Shown here piece by piece: positions 9,899-19,172 of a stretch of DNA of 64,000 nucleotides. How positions within the stretch are numbered: the stretch's first letter is position 1; each line of letters starts with the position of its first letter. This DNA is from Octopus sinensis (lineage: Eukaryota), in contig NC_043005.1 of assembly GCF_006345805.1 (NCBI RefSeq), positions 91,016,001 through 91,080,000 of the forward strand, given 5' to 3'. Both the position numbers and the translations under genes were made by a program. The notes beneath the pieces are model-generated. The model was not told where the DNA came from. It made no database searches and saw only the letters and a list, made by a program, of their open reading frames with translations.

Positions 9899-10813
9899 CT
9901 GTCAAAATATGTTATTCTAGTCAGTTAAAATATCAACAGGAACAGAAGAAAGAGACTATTCAGTTAGTCTGCCTATTTGTTGATGTGTGTGTGTGTGTGT
10001 GTGTGTGATTTTTGAAGTCTATTTTCCATGTTGGCATTGGTTAAACGTGTGTGTGTGTATATATATGTGTGTGTGTGTGTGTGTGTGCATACATACATAC
10101 ACACAATTATATTGATACAAATACGTGCACGCTTGTGTGTGTGTCTTTGTAGGTGAACACAGTGTAAACTAGAAGAGTGTTCAATACAGATGTTATATCA
10201 TATTTACTGGAAGCTAAAAGCTTCATGGATCATTATTCTTGCTTCCATTTTAAAGATGATAATGATGAACAGAACAAGGAAAGAAACCATACATAAGCAA
10301 GAAAAAAGCATGCACACAATTACATTGTATATAAAACATTAAAAATGCAAACTGCTCAAGGAAATTAACAATAAAATATAAAATGTTTAATGCTGCTGAT
10401 AATGAATCATTATGATAAAGCTCATCATCATTGTTTCACATAAGTTTTCCATTGGACAGGTCATGGCAGTTCAAGTCAGCTCCTATTTAGAGTTACTTCA
10501 TTTCTAGAGAAATCAGAAGACCATGTCTTGCTCATATGTTTTCAGTTTTAGCTTTTTTCTATGGCTATAAATGTACGTGAAATGCGTAGCTGTATTTCGT
10601 CTACCGTTACATTCTGAGTTCAAATTCCGCCAAGGTCGATTTTGCCTTTCATCCTTTTGGGGTCGATAAATAAAGTACCAGTTACGCACTGGGGTCAATG
10701 TAATCAACTTAATCCCTTTGTCTGTCTTTGTTTGTCCCCTCTATGTTTAGCCCCTTGTGGGCAATAAAGAAATATATAAAAGTACATTTCATTTCCAACT
10801 TGATTTACATATA

Positions 10814-11687
10814 TACGAGATCTGATAAAAAGTATTTGGACTGTTGCCATAGTTACAAAGTTAAAGCATGCAGAGTGAAGCAGCTTAGCACAGATTGACC
10901 TTGAACTCTGTTGTACATGCACACTAAGTTTTAACATTCTAGCTCACAGCAATGCTTGGTAGGAAGGTGCGTAGCATGTGATCATCACATTGACCATGAC
11001 AGAGTAAGTTGCCATGGTGATACCTGATCAGGGGCCTACGCAAAGTTACAGAAAGTGTATGGAGAGGAGTGTATGAGCCACACACAAGTGTACAAGTGGT
11101 TCAGATGTTTCCAAGATGGCCAAAAATGTTGATATTGATGAATGTTCTGAGAGACCCGCAACCAGCATAATTGAGAAAAACATTGCAGATGTGTGTGCAG
11201 CTGAGTGGGGAACTTGTTGAATCACCAGTTGTGAGTTATCAGAGGATGTGCAGATTAGTTATGGTTCACTTGAGTCTATTATCACTGAAGATTTGGATAT
11301 GAGACATGTGTCTGCCAAGTTTGTACCAAAACTGTTTTCAGCTGACCAAATGGACACTGAGGTTTCAGTTGCACAAGATCTCTCTGATTGTGTCAAGAAC
11401 AATGAAAACTTTTTGTGTAGGCCTCTGAGTAGGTATCACCAAACTTTTGACAAAATTTGATGCAGATTCTCTACTCAACTTTGTCTGTCATGGTCAATGC
11501 GACGATCATACACTACACACTTTCCTTCCAAGCACTGCTGTAAACAGCAGAAGTGAGATAGAATTTTAAAACTTAGTGCTCATGCACAGCAGAGTTCAAG
11601 GTCAATCTTTGCCAAGCAGCTTAACTCTCCATGATTTAGCTTCATTTCTATAGCAACAGTCTGGATACTTATTGATCAGACCACATA
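10814..11687 (+). mobile_element. Internally deleted mariner element with long TIRs
   Basis: TA-flanked ~200-bp inverted ends; HTH remnants KVYGEECMSHTQVYKWF and ISYGSLESIITEDLDMRHVSAKFVPKL. Confidence 0.85.
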
Positions 11688-12009
11688 TATTTATCTATAT
11701 GTATACATACTAATATATAAATATATAATATAATTATATATTAGTATAAATTGTTACCTATATGGTTTTATTACATGCTGGTCACTTAATAAAATCATTA
11801 AAATGATTTATCTTTAATTTTGTATAAATACATATTTTTACTCCTGATCAAATTACATTCACTGTGATATCATTTTGATTGTAAAAGCATGTGGTTGAGA
11901 TATTAAACAATTAGATTTAACTAGTGTATACTTGTATGTATATAATCATGCGGATAAATGTTGTTCGTACGGGTATGTATAAATATTTGCATTTATATAC
12001 TATGGGCAT

Positions 12010-12066
12010 ATTGTACTGATGACAACAAAGGATTTCACAACCCTAAGCCAGAAATTGATCTACAAT
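12010..12066 (+). ncRNA. Degenerate hammerhead motif
   Basis: ATTGTA-CTGATGA-(28 nt, eroded stem II)-GAAA-TTG-ATC-TACAAT; 6-bp stem I intact. Confidence 0.45.
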
Positions 12067-12392
12067 TAATCGCTTTTAAAAAATTTTATTCATTTATTCA
12101 TCTGCCCGCTTACAATCTGTGCTAACAGAGTGTAGAGGTGGTTTTTAGAGCCATTTGGCATCTATTTCTAGCATGTTGGTGGGGTTTATCCACACCCTTT
12201 AATATAATTATATAATAGTATAAATTGTTATCTGTACGTTTTCATTACATGCTGGCCACTAGATAAAATTACTAAAATGGTTTTATCCTTAATTTTGTGT
12301 ACATATGTATATATATATCGCCATGTTGATTCGTTAGCTACTGCACGCATTTTTTTTCTCTCCTTCTTTCTGTGTTTTTCTCTCTCTGTGTA

Positions 12393-12430
12393 TCTTTCTG
12401 TTGAAGAGCGTAGGCTCGAAACGTTAAAGA
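12393..12430 (+). ncRNA. Variant minimal hammerhead-like motif
   Basis: TCTTT-CTGTTGA-A-GAGCGTAGGCTC-GAAAC-GTT-AAAGA; palindromic AACGTT stem III; non-canonical core (A6 to U, one extra A). Confidence 0.5.
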
Positions 12431-13141
12431 CTTGTTTTATTTATATTTCCTGAGCGCCATACTAATACAATTGTTCGTTTGTTTTCCACCTGCCTTCGTC
12501 TTTTGTTTATTTTCATAAAGCTTCCCGTTATATATATATATATATATACACAAACACACACACAGAGTGGTGAGAGACAAATGGATAGTTCAAAACATCA
12601 CTACACACAGTTCAATAGTGTGGTTTATTCTCAAATATGAAATCCTTAACATATTAGATAACATAACATAAATTCGTATTGTTATGTAACCACTCCATTT
12701 CATCAGGTGATATTCTGCCAAATAATTTGGCAAAATATGAGGGAAGAGATTTCTATAACCAAACAGAATGAAACAAGAATTTTCAACAAAGGCTGGAGAT
12801 ATTAAATTCAGTGACTAACCAAAGCAACACAATTCCAAAAGCAACTAAAGTAATCTATGCTTATCCTGGAGGGGGGTGCTCAAATGGCCATATTCAATTC
12901 AGCTAAGAGAGATCTACAACTATTTAATCTGCATGGACCACTATACTGACCAGCTGAATCACCTGGAATATTTTCTTTCAGAATAATCTGTTTAGGAAAA
13001 GACATTGTGATGCTTCTAAGTTAATTTGCCAAGATCTATATGATCCCCTCTGTATTACTATTTTATATATATATATATATATATATTAGAAATATTAAAT
13101 TTCTAAGTATATCTCAGAGAGATATGAGTGGTGGTGGAACG

Positions 13142-13515
13142 ATAGAGCGGTTGCATACTATCAACTTAATGTGACAGTCCCATAGAGGGAATTACACCAC
13201 CGTTATTTATCCCTAGGAAGCAACAATGCAAATATGTCAGCCTTGACACATTTCCTGTGTCTTTATGTTTACAAAGGGGAGACAAGCACCCCCAACAGCT
13301 AGGCCTGCATCCAGAGACATATTTCTGAGTCTTGCTCGTCGTCAGTCTGGAGTAGCATGGCCTGCTAGCTGAAGATACCTGTCTAGGCTTTGTAAGGACA
13401 CAGGAAATGTGTCACGGCCGACAGGAAGCGTTGATGCTTCCTAGGGCTAAATAGCGGTGGTGTAATTCCCTCTATGGGTCTGTCACGTTAAGTTGACAGT
13501 ATACAACTGCTCTAT
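13142..13515. mobile_element. Foldback/MITE-like element, ~170-bp inverted arms, hammerhead motif at the apex
   Basis: 13142-13315 aligns to the reverse complement of 13346-13515 along its full length; TA at both ends. Confidence 0.85.
13310..13351 (-). ncRNA. Type I minimal hammerhead ribozyme motif (sense to Rab18 intron 2)
   Basis: Minus strand reads TCCAGA-CTGACGA-CGAGCAAGACTCA-GAAA-TAT-GTC-TCTGGA: 6-bp stem I, core, GAG/CTC stem II, GUC triplet; C-A mismatch at the base of stem II. Confidence 0.7.
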
Positions 13516-14328
13516 ATATATATACACACACACACACACACATACATACATACACACACACAGGTGTGCGCGCGCACACACACACACACACACACAGAGG
13601 TTTATATATTTTCCAAGACATGTCACAGGACTATGGTTAACTAGGTATATTTCATTTTGGCATAGCTTCTATTGCTGGATGCCCTTTCTAATACTAATCA
13701 TCATAAAGAGACACTAGGTTCAATTTCTAATAACTCCATTACTAGACAAGTTGTCTTGTTTTTAGCAAAAGTATCTTCCCTACTTTATGGTGTCTCAGCT
13801 CATTCACCAGCCACTTCACACAGTGTACTGTTTGCCTTGTATTGTGACACCAGCACTGCAAAACAAAACAGCCTTCTCTAAATGAAGTTGTGGCTGTTCA
13901 TTCAAAATATACATGACCAAGAGAGTAAATAAAAAAAAATATGTATATGAATGTGATTTGTTAGACAGAGTGAAATTTTGAAAGTGTGGACTATAAAAAC
14001 TTGTGAATAAAGTATGCATTCAATTAGATTGCAAAGCAATTAAACTGTAAACGGAATATAACAATGCAAAATCATGTAAGAAAGTTATGTATAAGCATAT
14101 ATTTCTATATATGAAGAGCTTTTTTGTTGCTAGCAGTACAGAAAAGCAACATCATTGTCATCATTGAACAGCCACTTTTCCATGTTTGCATGGGTTGGAC
14201 GGTGTTTATTTCAGGCAGATTTTTCTATGACCAGATACTTTTCCTGATTCCAAGCAGGGTAATATTGGAAATAAATGACACTGAATATTGGACATTCATT
14301 TCCACCTTTAAATGATGTCAAGACAAGG

Positions 14329-14365
<37 letters not shown>

Positions 14366-14789
14366 GAACATGCTTCTTTCAGTTTCAGTCCAAATCCACT
14401 CACACAACTTTGGTCATCCCAGTCCATGGCTATCATAGAAGACACTTGACCATTGACCAAAGTGCTACGTAGTGGGATTGAAACTAAAACTATGTGGTTG
14501 GGAACCAAACTTCTTACCATACACCCACACCTGCACCTAAAAAAAGGCAAAGGTCTGATACTGTACAGCAAAATCAAATAAATACATTATGGTATTATCA
14601 ATAAGACAGCTTATAATGGTACTTGGTGGAGGGATTTACACCAAAGTTCAAATTTTAAGTTCAAGTCATAAGAACACTGGGACTGAATGAGAAGCTTTTC
14701 CCATAGACATGGCTGACAACAAAGCTTCAGCCTGGAACTTCTATGGCAATAGAAAGGGGCTCAATCCAAGACTGATAAATTGATATCGA

Positions 14790-15900
14790 ATGTATGATGC
14801 TTTTTCTCGAAGCAAATATATTTCTGAAATCGGTTACAAATTTTTTTTCTGGCTGACGAAAAGCCAATCTGATAAATCCAAGTTTGGAAATTACGTTCAG
14901 TCAATCTAATGTAAAATTATTACCTTAGTGCAATACAATAATAATTTTGCCAGGAAATTATGATCATGAAGGCAATTTTCCAATATTTTTTAACTTGTAA
15001 AGGAATAAGCAAAGTTTTTACATGCAGAATAGTTCACTTTAATGTGATTTCAGTTGAAGATTTTATGGTACTTTGTGATTTATTTGAAAATGATAAGAGA
15101 TCAAGCCAAGAAACTCTTTTGCTATGTTAGATTTCACATTTAAGCTGAACACAGGGTTATATCACAGAATTTTACATCTCCTGTTCCTGCACTTCAAGGT
15201 ATTAGATCCTGGTGGATATTGTATCTTCTCAAAGAATTCTTTGTTTTTGAGGGCTGTGTTATAATAGTGAGAGACACTTATGAATGTGGATTTATCTGCA
15301 AGTAAAGACGATATACACACAGACTAATGCTGGAGACTAAATTATACAAAATTCTAAGTGTATGGTTAGAACTCTTATTTCTCTAACAATTTGTTATTAA
15401 GCATATTCTGTAGTTTAAGCTTACTTCTATAAAGATCCAGGATGATGTCTAAAAACATTGACATTATTAAAATTAGTGTCTTCAGTAATACATAATCTTA
15501 ATTCACTAAATAGCTTTATTAGTTTCTTTCTAAATGTTTCTAGGCCATGTCTATTGATATATCTCAAAATGAATAATCCATCATCTCTATAAATACCTCT
15601 AACAGTAGGAAATTTTTTATGTAGAAGGTTTAGGATATAGATGCCTATAAGATAATACAACTGAGCCCCATAATATGAATGTCAAATAGTTCACTTCCAA
15701 TTTTCTTGACCCAGATGGAATTATCAAACAACAGTACGAAACATTCTCACATACACTATATAAATATTGGACTCACTAATCTTAGCGTTTATGAAGTCCA
15801 AAACTTTGAAAAAAGCCTTAGAGATTGTAAGATAAAAGAATGATGTAAAACTGAGTGCATTTACAATTTTGTTCATCATGGAACCCTTGAAACCATTCTG
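14790..15900 (-). mobile_element. Degenerate Penelope-like element (RT plus GIY-YIG-like remnants)
   Basis: RGIYRDDGLF in ORF 15427..15660; upstream IWVKKIGSELFDI; downstream frameshifted NP-FSLNVKSNIAKEFL and HKIFN-like segments. Confidence 0.75.
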
Positions 15901-16259
15901 AACTGATGCCCCCTAAAGGGGGGAAAGGATAATTGCATTTTTTACTCTAAGAATATTTGCTCGTCAACTATTCCTAATCCAAGGTTTGTTAAGTTAACTA
16001 ATGTCCATTTGGAGATCATAATGAAACTTAGCTTGTGATCTTAAAACACAATATATACACTGAGTGGATGTGGGGGTGGTTAGGTAGTCAACACTGCCAT
16101 CTATACTAAGTTTAGCAGCAAATTCTTTGGCTTCTATATTAATGCTTGTGTCAGCTCTGGTTTTTTTGTTTTATATATATATATATTATTATTATTAGTT
16201 ATATTATAGATAAAAGCTTGCTCTCATTCCCCATACACACATGCGTGCATGTCTCAAAG

Positions 16260-17450
16260 AAATACTAGGTGACATGGTATGTTAAGGAGGAAAAGACAGG
16301 GATCTATAGCAAAAAGGGCAATTGGAAGTTTCTAGGACATAACCTGCTATAAACAACAGACCAGATCTGTGGATGGTACAAGGTTCCAGCCAGACATAAA
16401 GGGATATGGTGATGAGATGGTACATGAAATAGAGCCATAACAGCTAAGAGGCAAGCCTGGAAAGACTGGGGTAAAAGAGGGAGCATAGAACAATATTAGG
16501 ATGCTATAAGGAAAGCTAAATATCAGATGTATGAAAATGAGAAGCTGAAAGTTTTGGAGGTCTACTAAAGTTGTATACTAAGAGTATAGAAGGCCTGAGG
16601 TGTTCTGGATAGAAAAGCAGTGCATCAGTGTGAATTGAAGGGAAAAGTAGATGAAAAGAAAAGCATGTACAAAATGATAACACACTTGCTGTCACTAACT
16701 GTGAGAAGAAAGAGACTAAAAAATTTTACTAGAAGTGTTTGTTGAATGAAAAGATTGTGTAGGAGAAAGAAGGATTACCACAAGAAAACCCAAAAGCGGA
16801 AGGTTGAGAGTTATATGGTTGATAACTATATGAAGATAAACAGCTTTTGAGTCATGTAAGCCATGTAAAGAGGTGTTGTTAGCAAGGAAAGAATTGGCAA
16901 CAAGTTCAATGAGGAAGTTAGCTTGCGGGTAAGTGTCTATCAGAACTCAGATCTCAGGTCCCTCATTTTTTTATATATTTCTGGAGGGCATAACAGATTA
17001 GAAGTAGCCATGCTCAATATGAAGTAAATGGGTGGGTAGAAATTTCATATTGTGTACCTAATGTAAACTATGGGTACACAAAAGATGCAATGAGATCTCA
17101 GGCAAAAGAGTAGACTTTGTATGTAGCAGAGGCACAAGTACAGTTTGCAGTTAAGACCATCTGTGAAATAAATCAATTTTCAAATACTTGAAAGGCTCCA
17201 TAAAAGTAGTTGATGGCGTCTGTTCCCAAGATGACAGACAGAATAAGATCAAAATGGAAAAGTTCAGGGAACCATAAGTTCAGCTGGCAACAAAAAAGAT
17301 TCTTCCCCTAAGTGAAGATCAGATTATATACTTCCAGTATATGGTGTGCAATTTTGCATGATGGAGAAACATCAGCTTTGAATACAAATGATGTGGAAAG
17401 GCTGCAAAAAAATGGAGCAAGTAAACACCACTTATGTATAGTGCTAGTGT
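16260..17450 (+). mobile_element. Highly eroded copy of the RTE-like LINE
   Basis: RAITAKRQAWKDW-like and KVVD..C..-like patches resembling the 58030-59285 family. Confidence 0.55.
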
Positions 17451-19172
17451 ATACAAGTAACATAGAATAGTGGAAGTGCATGGCTTAGTGGTTAAGGTGT
17501 TGGACTCGTGATTGTAAGATTGTGGTTTCAATCTCTAGACCAGGCAATGTGTTGTGTTCGTCATTTCACATTACTCCAGTCCACTCAGCTGGCAGAAATG
17601 AGTAATCCTGTGATGGACCAGCATCCCATCCATGTGGGGAATATATACATCATGAAACTAGGAAACCAGCCCTTGTGAGTCGGTGTGACTCAAAAAGGTA
17701 ACTTTACCATACTTTTTTTAACTTAGAATAAATAAACTGAATTTAAGAAGAATCAAGAGAGAAACTGTTCTGGCATAGATGTATCTAGGGGATGATAAAT
17801 GGATAAAAAAAAGTATCAAGGAATTCCAGTGGAAAGAAGGAACCAACAGAAAAGGTAACTGAGGAAGAAATGGGAATAAGTGGTGAAGGCTGACAAAGGA
17901 CAGTGATAAGTAGCAAGACACTGTACTGGTGAAGACCTGTCCAAGTCATGCAAGCATAAAAAAATGTGTAGAAGTGATGATGGTAATGGTGGCAGTGCTG
18001 GTAATGCTGATGGTGATGATGATCATGATGATGGTGATGTAATGATAAGACTATCAGACAGAAAAGCAAGTAAAGAATATAAACTGATTATAGAGATGTA
18101 TATTAAAAAGGGAAATAGTTTCCTTCCTTCCTTCCCCCCCCCTCTCTCTCTCTCTCTTTCTCAGCAGCTGCTGCATCAGCAACAATTGCATCCAACTTTT
18201 TATTACCTCTTTACCAATCAACATATACACTTATAATCATGTCTTTATGATCCTTTGATATTGCTTTCCCTGGCAGCTTACAACTTAGTACCTAAGAAGC
18301 TCTATCAACTTCTTTCTCTGGCTGTGTTTCAACTAATGCCTTACACGCCCTAATAAGTCATTCAACTGAAAATAAAAAGCTCATGTTCCTTAGCTTAGTC
18401 CTTTTCCCTGTAACCTTTTTTTATTAATACATAAAACTGCTGCTGCTGTTAAACCCCGGATTAGCTCTGATTGAACAGTTATATATCCAGAACTGAATTG
18501 TGTGATTTATGAACTCTATTGTGGATGGTGGATGCCAGTGCCACCTTGACTGGCTTCTGTGCCGGTGGCACATAAAAGGCACCCACTACACTCATGGAGT
18601 GGTTGGCGTTAGGAAGGGCATCCAGCTGTAGAAACATTGCCAGATCAGATTGGAGCCTGGTACAGCCTCCTGGTTCGCAGACCCAGGTCAAACCGTCCAA
18701 CCCATGCTAGCATGGAAAACGGATGTTAAATGATGATGATGATGATGATTGTGTGATTTATGGGAGATTTGGCTTGATGTTTCTTTTTATTTGTAATTAT
18801 GGAAATCCCAAGGTAAAATAATTGTCTAATAGACTGTGCAGCCAGGAGTTTAATTTATATAATTCATATAACCTTGATTAAAAACAGAAACAACTATGTA
18901 TCAAGTGCAACAGCCTGATTAGGTTTCAAATACTTGATATTCAGATTATTATTACTTTTTCAATTGTGGCAAGTAGTTTGCTATGGTAATAAATTGTCAA
19001 TGGCTAGAACTTGCAACCCAGTTTAGTTTGTCTATTAGAATGGTTTCTGTTATAAAGCTAACACCCTGAATTAAGCCAGCAATGTTAAAACTTTATATAA
19101 GCCTTTATTTTAAACTCATGGCACTTCAGGCCGAGGAGAATTATTTGCAAAACAAAGAAAGGCATCACTTAC

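What the first reader, a model, noticed from the sequence alone, without database searches (positions are those of the whole stretch)
13142..13515. Rod-like foldback element with a hammerhead ribozyme at its apex, sense in Rab18 intron 2
Seen: the ~374-bp element is one long imperfect hairpin whose innermost stem (TCCAGA/TCTGGA) is stem I of a hammerhead on the minus strand (CUGACGA, GAG/CUC, GAAA, GUC; predicted cut between 13316 and 13315). Established: minimal type I hammerheads accompany Penelope-like elements and retrozymes, usually in direct or tandem repeats, while TA-flanked TIR elements are normally ribozyme-free DNA MITEs. Inference: this may be an undescribed non-autonomous family combining MITE-like architecture with a self-cleaving RNA in a viroid-like rod. 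It is co-oriented with the Rab18 pre-mRNA, so it could cut the intron. The C-A mismatch in stem II and U-G in stem III may have inactivated this copy.
Basis: partly seen in the sequence, partly recalled or inferred. Interest (0 to 1): 0.8.

Follow-up and report, generated by a model that had tools for sequence, protein, structure and literature searches.

The report
Inverted hammerhead retrozyme targeted by LINEs
The hairpin is one copy of a short, non-coding, Penelope-type jumping element that carries a minimal hammerhead ribozyme and was likely folded back when a second, inverted partial copy was joined to it during insertion; this copy probably no longer cuts itself, but most sampled copies of a separate LINE-type element sit just upstream of this family's ribozymes.

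Summary
The rod (z = -25) and the minus-strand hammerhead in intron 2 of a Rab18-like gene are real; the MITE/viroid reading is not supported. The element is a copy of a 349-nt, head-to-tail, non-coding repeat with the marks of Penelope-like elements (PLE): fixed 3' end, optional ~57-nt tail, 5' truncation, 9-14-bp target duplications. Of 95 copies picked by the ribozyme alone, 31 have a 5' inverted arm with scattered junctions, and only 4 form this in-register rod. The family ribozyme is genuine (covarying stems, palindromic stem III); this copy has a rare C15.2-to-U change, is single, and is probably inactive. No autonomous PLE partner was found. Unexpected side result: an ORF1-only L1/Tx1-type element lies 20-37 nt upstream of the hammerhead core, or of a duplicate of that site, in 32 of 39 and 24 of 30 sampled copies, across at least three diverged hammerhead families, with target duplications and tandem re-insertions; some LINE-plus-repeat composites carry PLE-type inversions. 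I found no paper on this targeting (Repbase/Dfam not searchable). The scan holds no note on this sequence; one note on another genome read a different hammerhead repeat as a dead PLE copy.

The parts
13085..13143 (-). Optional PLE-type tail (repeat-unit positions 1-57), present at this end only
   Evidence: 88% identity to positions 1-57 of a natural unit; 30 of 95 family insertions end at this tail and 53 end just before it
13144..13395 (-). 5'-truncated sense copy of the 349-nt unit (positions 99-349), carrying the hammerhead
   Evidence: L001 1621-1872, 88%
13393..13513 (+). Inverted, more deeply truncated second copy (positions 229-349); forms the outer arm of the foldback. Joined through a 3-nt microhomology, 6 nt off the exact stem register
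13267..13395 (-). Extended stem I: a hairpin of about 45 bp intrinsic to the unit, capped by the hammerhead
   Evidence: also forms in a unit without inversion
13310..13351 (-). Minimal type I hammerhead; predicted cut between 13316 and 13315; rare U at position 15.2 (13321) breaks the stem III palindrome
   Evidence: duplex energy -0.8 against -4.6 kcal/mol
13064..13086 (.). (TA)n run at the tail end; likely insertion target
13514..13597 (.). (TA)n then (CA)n run at the inverted-arm end; no unique target duplication can be read
9899..19172 (-). Host intron 2 of a Rab GTPase gene (Rab18 by recalled motifs); the element is about 3.2 kb upstream of the 3' splice site

Best explanation
The element is a decayed copy of a non-coding, hammerhead-bearing 349-nt repeat that was likely mobilised by a Penelope-like retrotransposon enzyme, and its rod shape likely arose when two reverse-transcribed copies were joined head to head at one insertion site. 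Shown: unit structure, fixed 3' ends with an optional tail, 5' truncation, variable inversion, variable-length AT-rich target duplications, family-wide ribozyme covariation. Inferred: a PLE RT/GIY-YIG dimer cut the (TA)n site and primed both DNA ends, each at one of two internal start sites (with or without tail); the two cDNAs stopped early and were joined. Because the unit has a ~45-bp hairpin around the ribozyme, cDNAs that stop in opposite arms of it are complementary and can anneal in register, which leaves one ribozyme at the apex of a near-perfect rod. In source copies the ribozyme would cut tandem transcripts as a dimer through the palindromic stem III; this single copy, with a broken palindrome, is predicted not to cut the Rab18 pre-mRNA.
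For: Family of at least 155 exact ribozyme matches, control 0; 3300 first-look candidates for the whole element. Head-to-tail units in 10 of 95 insertions, 83 of 95 ending at unit position 341-349 or at the tail, 31 of 95 with an inverted arm, tail on one side only in 27 of those 31. Among 18 rod-like copies none was scored with a tail on both sides (8 right, 8 left, 2 neither). Target duplications in 17 of 81 insertions against 1.95 on average in shuffled flank pairs. The two arms of one insertion share subfamily alleles in 157 of 179 comparisons (98 expected; 27 insertions). 11 of 22 junctions among the best whole-element hits fall on one exact register (sum 325) although the query itself is off by 6. 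Stem pairs covary (88.5% paired, 9 double changes, 0 of 500 shuffles as high, 16 copies); stem III is a perfect palindrome in 147 of 194 hammerheads, in at least six different sequences. A sister family with at least 300 exact matches has the same layout. Published PLE anatomy: PMC8557442; two RT start sites, both-strand extension and predicted dimer: PMC11167929; single minimal hammerheads do not cleave: PMC4209133.
Against: No autonomous PLE sharing this repeat was found: loci around three PLE protein queries (110 loci) showed no ORF continuous with the unit; the genome holds many PLE families and only the best hits were read. In copies not chosen for the ribozyme the 12 core bases are barely more conserved than other columns (0.95 against mean 0.91, P about 0.06), as expected of neutral decay but no sign of selection on copies. 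Two near-identical loci (L166/L167) may be one insertion counted twice. The two-cDNA step is inferred from one in vitro study of a different PLE.
Confidence: 0.87

Rival explanations
1. A MITE-like DNA element whose long terminal inverted repeats enclose a captured hammerhead and which spreads as a whole rod.
For: At least 18 full rods exist in the genome; this copy is flanked by TA runs.
Against: 64 of 95 copies have no inverted arm; only 4 of 31 inversions are in register; tail side differs between rods and target duplications are 9-14 bp and variable; rods carry different ribozyme subtypes; one-armed, 5'-truncated and tandem copies cannot arise by cut-and-paste.
Confidence: 0.03
2. A viroid-like rod RNA: the hairpin is transcribed, self-cleaves, circularises and replicates as RNA.
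For: Very stable rod; other animal retrozymes make circular RNAs (PMC7229834, passages).
Against: One ribozyme, one polarity, so no unit-length release; the true repeat unit is branched; the copy differs from its relatives by 10-15%, like an old insertion.
Confidence: 0.02
3. The copy is a host-used intronic ribozyme that cuts the Rab18 pre-mRNA.
For: Co-oriented with the gene; all 12 core bases and GUC are intact; the cleavage-compatible fold costs only 2.3 kcal/mol; a PLE protein can assist a minimal hammerhead (PMC11167929).
Against: Orientation is a coin toss for one insertion; the copy has lost the stem III palindrome (duplex -0.8 against -4.6 kcal/mol) and has no partner ribozyme of its family in the window.
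Confidence: 0.04
4. The copies are truncated pseudo-LTR ends of an autonomous PLE rather than a separately amplified non-autonomous unit.
For: Most PLE insertions are 5'-truncated to one terminal repeat (bioRxiv 10.64898/2026.07.22.740005).
Against: Wherever copies extend upstream of the ribozyme they run through a non-coding linker into the tail of the previous unit, never into a GIY-YIG frame, in all loci read.
Confidence: 0.04

Closest known systems
Non-LTR retrozymes of animals / non-autonomous Penelope-like elements (Cervera & de la Pena 2020, PMC7229834; Li et al. 2026, bioRxiv 10.64898/2026.07.22.740005)
   Same: Non-coding unit of about 350 nt with a type I hammerhead, in dispersed single copies and short head-to-tail arrays.
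   Different: Ribozyme is the minimal PLE type, not the canonical loop-loop type; arrays are short (2-3 units seen); about a third of insertions carry a PLE-type 5' inversion; circular RNA not shown here.
Canonical EN+ PLE insertion units, Penelope/Poseidon, Neptune, Naiad (Craig et al. 2021, PMC8557442; Frangieh et al. 2024, PMC11167929)
   Same: 5' truncation, partial tandems, inverted 5' copy, optional one-sided tail, AT-rich and microsatellite targets, hammerhead in the terminal repeat.
   Different: No RT/endonuclease frame; tail about 57 nt rather than 30-40 nt; the autonomous partner is not identified.
Minimal hammerheads of metazoan PLEs (Cervera & de la Pena 2014, PMC4209133)
   Same: Conserved core, short palindromic helix III, predicted dimer activity, pairs of motifs on opposite strands within a few hundred bases.
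   Different: Helix I is continued by a stem of about 45 bp; helix II is short (3-4 bp).
Target-specific Tx1-clade LINEs and their passengers: Tx1L into Tx1D, Tx1-Mar and SINEU-3 into Mariner-N4_AMi (Kojima 2015, PMC4494074)
   Same: For the side finding: preference for one site in another mobile element, target duplications, tandem re-insertion, likely transcription from the target.
   Different: Target is a retroelement's ribozyme region, hit at a similar distance in several families whose sequence at the nick differs; the specific element encodes only an ORF1-like protein.

Membership tests
Minimal type I hammerhead (PLE type) | CUGANGA, GAAA and NUH core in type I order | tested here: met
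   Window copy; family
Minimal type I hammerhead (PLE type) | Stems I and II kept by compensatory changes | tested here: met
   16 copies, 9 double changes, 0 of 500 shuffles; related copies inflate this; 194 motifs from this and sister families
Minimal type I hammerhead (PLE type) | Short palindromic stem III for dimer formation (family) | tested here: met
   147 of 194 perfect palindromes
Minimal type I hammerhead (PLE type) | Palindromic stem III in the window copy | tested here: not met
   U at 13321; 4 such matches genome-wide; duplex -0.8 kcal/mol
Minimal type I hammerhead (PLE type) | Self-cleavage | not testable with these tools
   Needs in vitro transcription
Rfam hammerhead families | Match to a curated covariance model | tested here: not met
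   No hammerhead hit at E <= 10 in window 12000-15000 or E <= 5 in four other loci
Non-autonomous PLE / non-LTR retrozyme | Head-to-tail non-coding units, each with a hammerhead | tested here: met
   349-nt unit; 10 of 95 tandem; L072 and L168 hold 2 and 3 ribozymes about 351-355 nt apart
Non-autonomous PLE / non-LTR retrozyme | 5' truncation, fixed 3' end, optional tail, 5' inverted copy | tested here: met
   83 of 95, 31 of 95, tail one-sided in 27 of 31
Non-autonomous PLE / non-LTR retrozyme | AT-rich or microsatellite targets with variable-length duplications | tested here: met
   17 of 81 with a duplication (shuffled 1.95); 30 of 81 next to a dinucleotide run (no control run)
Non-autonomous PLE / non-LTR retrozyme | Homology to the pseudo-LTR of an autonomous PLE | tested here: inconclusive
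   None found in 110 PLE loci from three protein queries; many families unsampled
Non-autonomous PLE / non-LTR retrozyme | Circular RNA monomers | not testable with these tools
   Only contigs of runs not on record as RNA
MITE | Both terminal inverted repeats in nearly all copies, fixed interior | tested here: not met
   64 of 95 lack an inverted arm; junction sums range from about -7 to 536
MITE | Fixed-length target duplication | tested here: not met
   About 9-14 bp, variable
Viroid-like rod RNA | Rod-shaped unit with ribozymes that release it, usually in both polarities | tested here: not met
   One ribozyme in the rod; unit folds branched
Target-specific L1/Tx1 retrotransposon (side finding, element B) | More than 20% of copies flanked by one target type (Kojima's criterion, PMC4494074) | tested here: met
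   32 of 39 and 24 of 30 (classed by eye, 14 by a strict pattern)
Target-specific L1/Tx1 retrotransposon (side finding, element B) | Target sequence on both sides with a duplication; independent insertions | tested here: met
   duplications of about 9-25 bp, many distinct junctions, a truncated copy with its own 19-bp duplication (L246), off-target copies with 15-20-bp duplications
Target-specific L1/Tx1 retrotransposon (side finding, element B) | Own APE endonuclease and RT | tested here: not met
   About 1.65 kb, zinc-knuckle ORF1 only; it must borrow ORF2
Target-specific L1/Tx1 retrotransposon (side finding, element A) | APE + RT ORF2 and more than 20% target preference | tested here: not met
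   APE and RT present, but only 3 of 25 non-seed copies lie in hammerhead repeats
Tx1 clade | RT phylogeny with named Tx1 elements | not tested
   Only a homology search: nearest relatives unnamed (37-49%), named ones about 35%

The most novel reading that the evidence does not exclude
A LINE-derived hyperparasite homes to hammerhead ribozymes: the ORF1-only L1/Tx1-type element inserts 20-37 nt upstream of the catalytic core in several diverged retrozyme families, is transcribed from the host repeat, has its read-through RNA trimmed by the host ribozyme 50-70 nt past its own 3' end, uses that target-matched tail to find the next ribozyme, and also rides for free on PLE retrotransposition. The site preference and the hitch-hiking are supported here; the use of ribozyme cleavage is not tested.
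Probability: 0.2. Interest if true: 0.8.

Novelty: new variant of a known kind. Interest (0 to 1): 0.45.

Why it matters
The flagged hairpin itself is ordinary once placed: a new member of the PLE-derived retrozymes, and a caution that such inversions look like MITEs to TIR-based annotation. Two things go beyond that. First, the family gives genomic support for how PLE inverted ends form, a question named as open in PMC8557442: one-sided tails and in-register joins fit priming of both DNA ends from two start sites. Second, a LINE-type element that prefers the ribozyme-proximal site of several retrozyme families extends the known target list of L1/Tx1 elements and offers a direct test of whether a sequence, a hairpin or a ribozyme-cut RNA tail guides insertion.

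Tried and rejected
Rfam: no hammerhead match for the window or four other loci. Autonomous partner: PLE frames near family copies (L006, L050, L121, L127, L130, L138) are separate insertions, cut off by microsatellites or other repeats; three protein searches gave no PLE continuous with the unit; the two endonuclease fragments scanned had no Pfam hit. L060 looked like a longer unit but is a local duplication with flanks. Expression: no RNA holder listed; contigs of two runs guessed to be RNA lay on the family but none matched this copy, and contigs cannot show ends, strand or level, so nothing is concluded. Core-versus-arm conservation was significant only when pattern-selected copies were included (P = 0.001), which is circular; without them P about 0.06 and 0.32. 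One search used a reference with a damaged ribozyme and its region means were superseded. One search used a mis-numbered structure and was replaced. The tree of element B is mostly unresolved and my automatic target labels misfiled five copies, so its group statistics are not used. One search left out 14 pattern hits already held, four of them rods; one search corrects the architecture counts, while the duplication and microsatellite counts stay on 81. Literature searches for LINE/Tx1 targeting of hammerhead or Penelope repeats and for this family found no description; two cephalopod repeat papers contain no occurrence of 'ribozyme'.

Full report
Observation. The minus strand of 13142-13515 folds as a single imperfect hairpin (-237.7 kcal/mol; 100 shuffles -102.7 +/- 5.4; z = -25), and the apex holds a type I hammerhead core exactly as described, with the predicted cut between 13316 and 13315. 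The host gene is on the same strand; exons 2 and 3 lie at 19228-19173 and 9898-9837, so this is intron 2. I call the gene Rab18 from recalled peptide motifs. No Rfam hammerhead model matches, which is unsurprising for a minimal motif with an open helix I (my inference).

The family. The element belongs to a dispersed family in the 2.7-Gb genome G000: 3300 first-look candidates, 40 scored, and 155 exact matches to a 28-nt core-plus-stem-II pattern, control 0. Mapping all fetched loci on a natural full-length unit (L050, 349 nt) shows one repeat unit: tail (1-57), linker, a hairpin of about 45 bp capped by the ribozyme, and a distal part ending sharply at 349. The unit folds as a branched RNA (z = -6.5). 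The window copy is a sense copy of positions 99-349 plus the tail (to 13085), preceded by an inverted copy of 229-349. So the element is longer than flagged and asymmetric.

Architecture in a sample chosen by the ribozyme alone. Of the 155 pattern matches 100 were listed; these are 97 insertions, of which I held 95. Of these, 53 end at unit position 341-349 and 30 at the end of the tail; 10 are head-to-tail tandems; 31 have an adjacent inverted arm; the tail is on one side only in 27 of the 31, on both in 1, on neither in 3; and only 4 of the 31 junctions are in the register that makes a rod with the ribozyme at its tip (L166 and L167 may be one locus duplicated; L075 is a further inversion split by a later insertion). 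On the 81 insertions, 17 have a flanking duplication (shuffled pairs 1.95, maximum 5), mostly 9-14 bp and AT-rich, and 30 abut a dinucleotide run. In 27 inverted insertions the two arms share subfamily alleles in 157 of 179 comparisons (98 expected). This is not how a MITE behaves. It is the anatomy that Craig et al. give for PLE insertions: 5' truncation, partial tandems, an inverted 5'-truncated copy, and a tail often at one end (PMC8557442; passages and section 15 read).

How the rod likely forms. Frangieh et al. showed that a purified PLE protein cuts AT-rich DNA on both strands, extends both, starts reverse transcription at two internal sites that delimit the tail, and is predicted to be a dimer (PMC11167929; parts 1-2 of 4 read). 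Two cDNAs growing from the two DNA ends and joined after early stops explain the inversion and the one-sided tail. cDNAs stopping in opposite arms of the long stem around the ribozyme are complementary, so they can anneal in register. Among the 22 junctions in the best whole-element hits, 11 have exactly the same register (sum 325), though the query has 331 and would have favoured its own. The window copy is such a join near the base of the stem, slipped by 6 nt at a 3-nt microhomology. These steps are inferred.

The ribozyme. In the family it is real. On 16 copies 88.5% of cells pair, with 9 double changes (0 of 500 shuffles; relatedness inflates this). Across 194 motifs of this and sister families stem I swaps A-U/G-C, G-C/C-G and C-G/U-A, and stem III is a perfect palindrome in 147, in at least six sequences. 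Cervera and de la Pena describe such motifs as dimer-dependent, with no detectable cleavage of a single motif (PMC4209133; parts 1-2 of 4 read); 8 of 9 frog retrozyme dimers did not cleave in vitro (bioRxiv 10.64898/2026.07.22.740005; parts 1-3 of 5 read). The C.A at the base of stem II is the majority state (127 of 194). The U at 15.2 is rare (4 genome matches) and cuts the predicted dimer helix from -4.6 to -0.8 kcal/mol. Against selection on individual copies: core bases are only slightly more conserved than the rest in copies not chosen for them (P about 0.06). The window copy is alone in the window and probably inactive.

What was not found. No autonomous PLE shares the unit among 110 loci around three PLE protein queries. 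Expression could not be judged. A sister family (at least 300 exact matches) has the same layout and inversions.

Side finding. In 9 of the 81 insertions an L1/Tx1-type sequence ending in AATAAAG abuts unit position 117-132. Family A is a 5.4-kb element with APE and RT domains; two copies have target on both sides with 16- and 17-bp duplications, but only 3 of 25 non-seed copies lie in hammerhead repeats. Family B is about 1.65 kb and encodes only a zinc-knuckle ORF1-like protein. Queried with B's own 3' end, which holds no target sequence, the 39 non-seed hits divide into 27 with a hammerhead core 20-31 nt downstream, 3 tandem members followed by a duplicate of the target, 2 in a sister-family target that has lost the core, and 7 unrelated. 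In 30 loci taken in coordinate order from 167 matches to B's last 17 nt, 20 have an intact or decayed core within about 37 nt (14 by a strict pattern, 6 by eye; one is a seed), 4 a duplicated or truncated target, 6 nothing related. Targets belong to at least three diverged hammerhead families whose sequence at the insertion point differs. Independence is shown by many distinct junctions, target on both flanks of full-length copies, a truncated copy with its own 19-bp duplication, tandem re-insertions, and off-target copies with 15-20-bp duplications. Hitch-hiking also occurs and inflates the counts: several composites lack upstream target, and L180, L234 and L241 show a PLE-type inverted arm on a LINE-plus-repeat composite. 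In several full-length B copies the 5' flank differs from the 3' target yet ends the same way, which suggests that B RNA carries target sequence from its donor site; this is inferred. Tx1-clade elements that prefer other transposons are known (PMC4494074, passages), so this is a new target type, not a new principle. My searches found no report of it; Repbase, Dfam, subscription journals and the supplements of the cited papers were not seen and may hold these families.

Verdict. The flagged element is a new member of a known kind (non-autonomous PLE / retrozyme with a standard 5' inversion; confidence 0.87). The hammerhead-proximal LINE targeting lifts the whole to a new variant of a known kind. 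Interest 0.45.

Noticed in passing
window 12317-12530, + strand (antisense to the Rab gene, same intron): A second, unrelated repeat in TA runs with a hammerhead-like motif whose core reads CUGUUGA; 97% identical over 231 nt to a copy in L050 that lies about 600 nt downstream of a GIY-YIG-like frame, and variants with CUGUGGA occur in L006 and L325. Likely the terminal repeat of another PLE family with an altered catalytic core.
   Followed up: partly
L245-L280, L395-L424, L163, L147: ORF1-only L1/Tx1-type element B inserted 20-37 nt upstream of hammerhead cores in several families, with target duplications and tandem arrays (L249, L260, L264, L279).
   Followed up: yes
L180 (G000:C11:54171000-54180999): A 5-kb LINE fragment plus the 3' part of the repeat carries an inverted repeat arm with tail at its 5' end, as if the whole composite was copied by the PLE machinery.
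   Followed up: partly
L365-L394: Sister hammerhead repeat family, at least 300 exact ribozyme matches, same tail-linker-long stem layout; L388 is an inversion joined right at the ribozyme.
   Followed up: partly
L299 2780-3467: A third related foldback repeat sharing the tail sequence, inserted in a PLE frame.
   Followed up: no
L315-L334: Several PLE families with open frames of 800-1120 codons (RT plus C-terminal endonuclease), some with near-identical copies, so probably recently active.
   Followed up: no
L205, L207, L214: Family A LINE copies inserted head-on into the 3' region of another copy of their own family.
   Followed up: no
runs X15, X16, X17: The repeat family is also held by runs labelled as other organisms (C, D), so it predates or crosses a species split.
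   Followed up: partly
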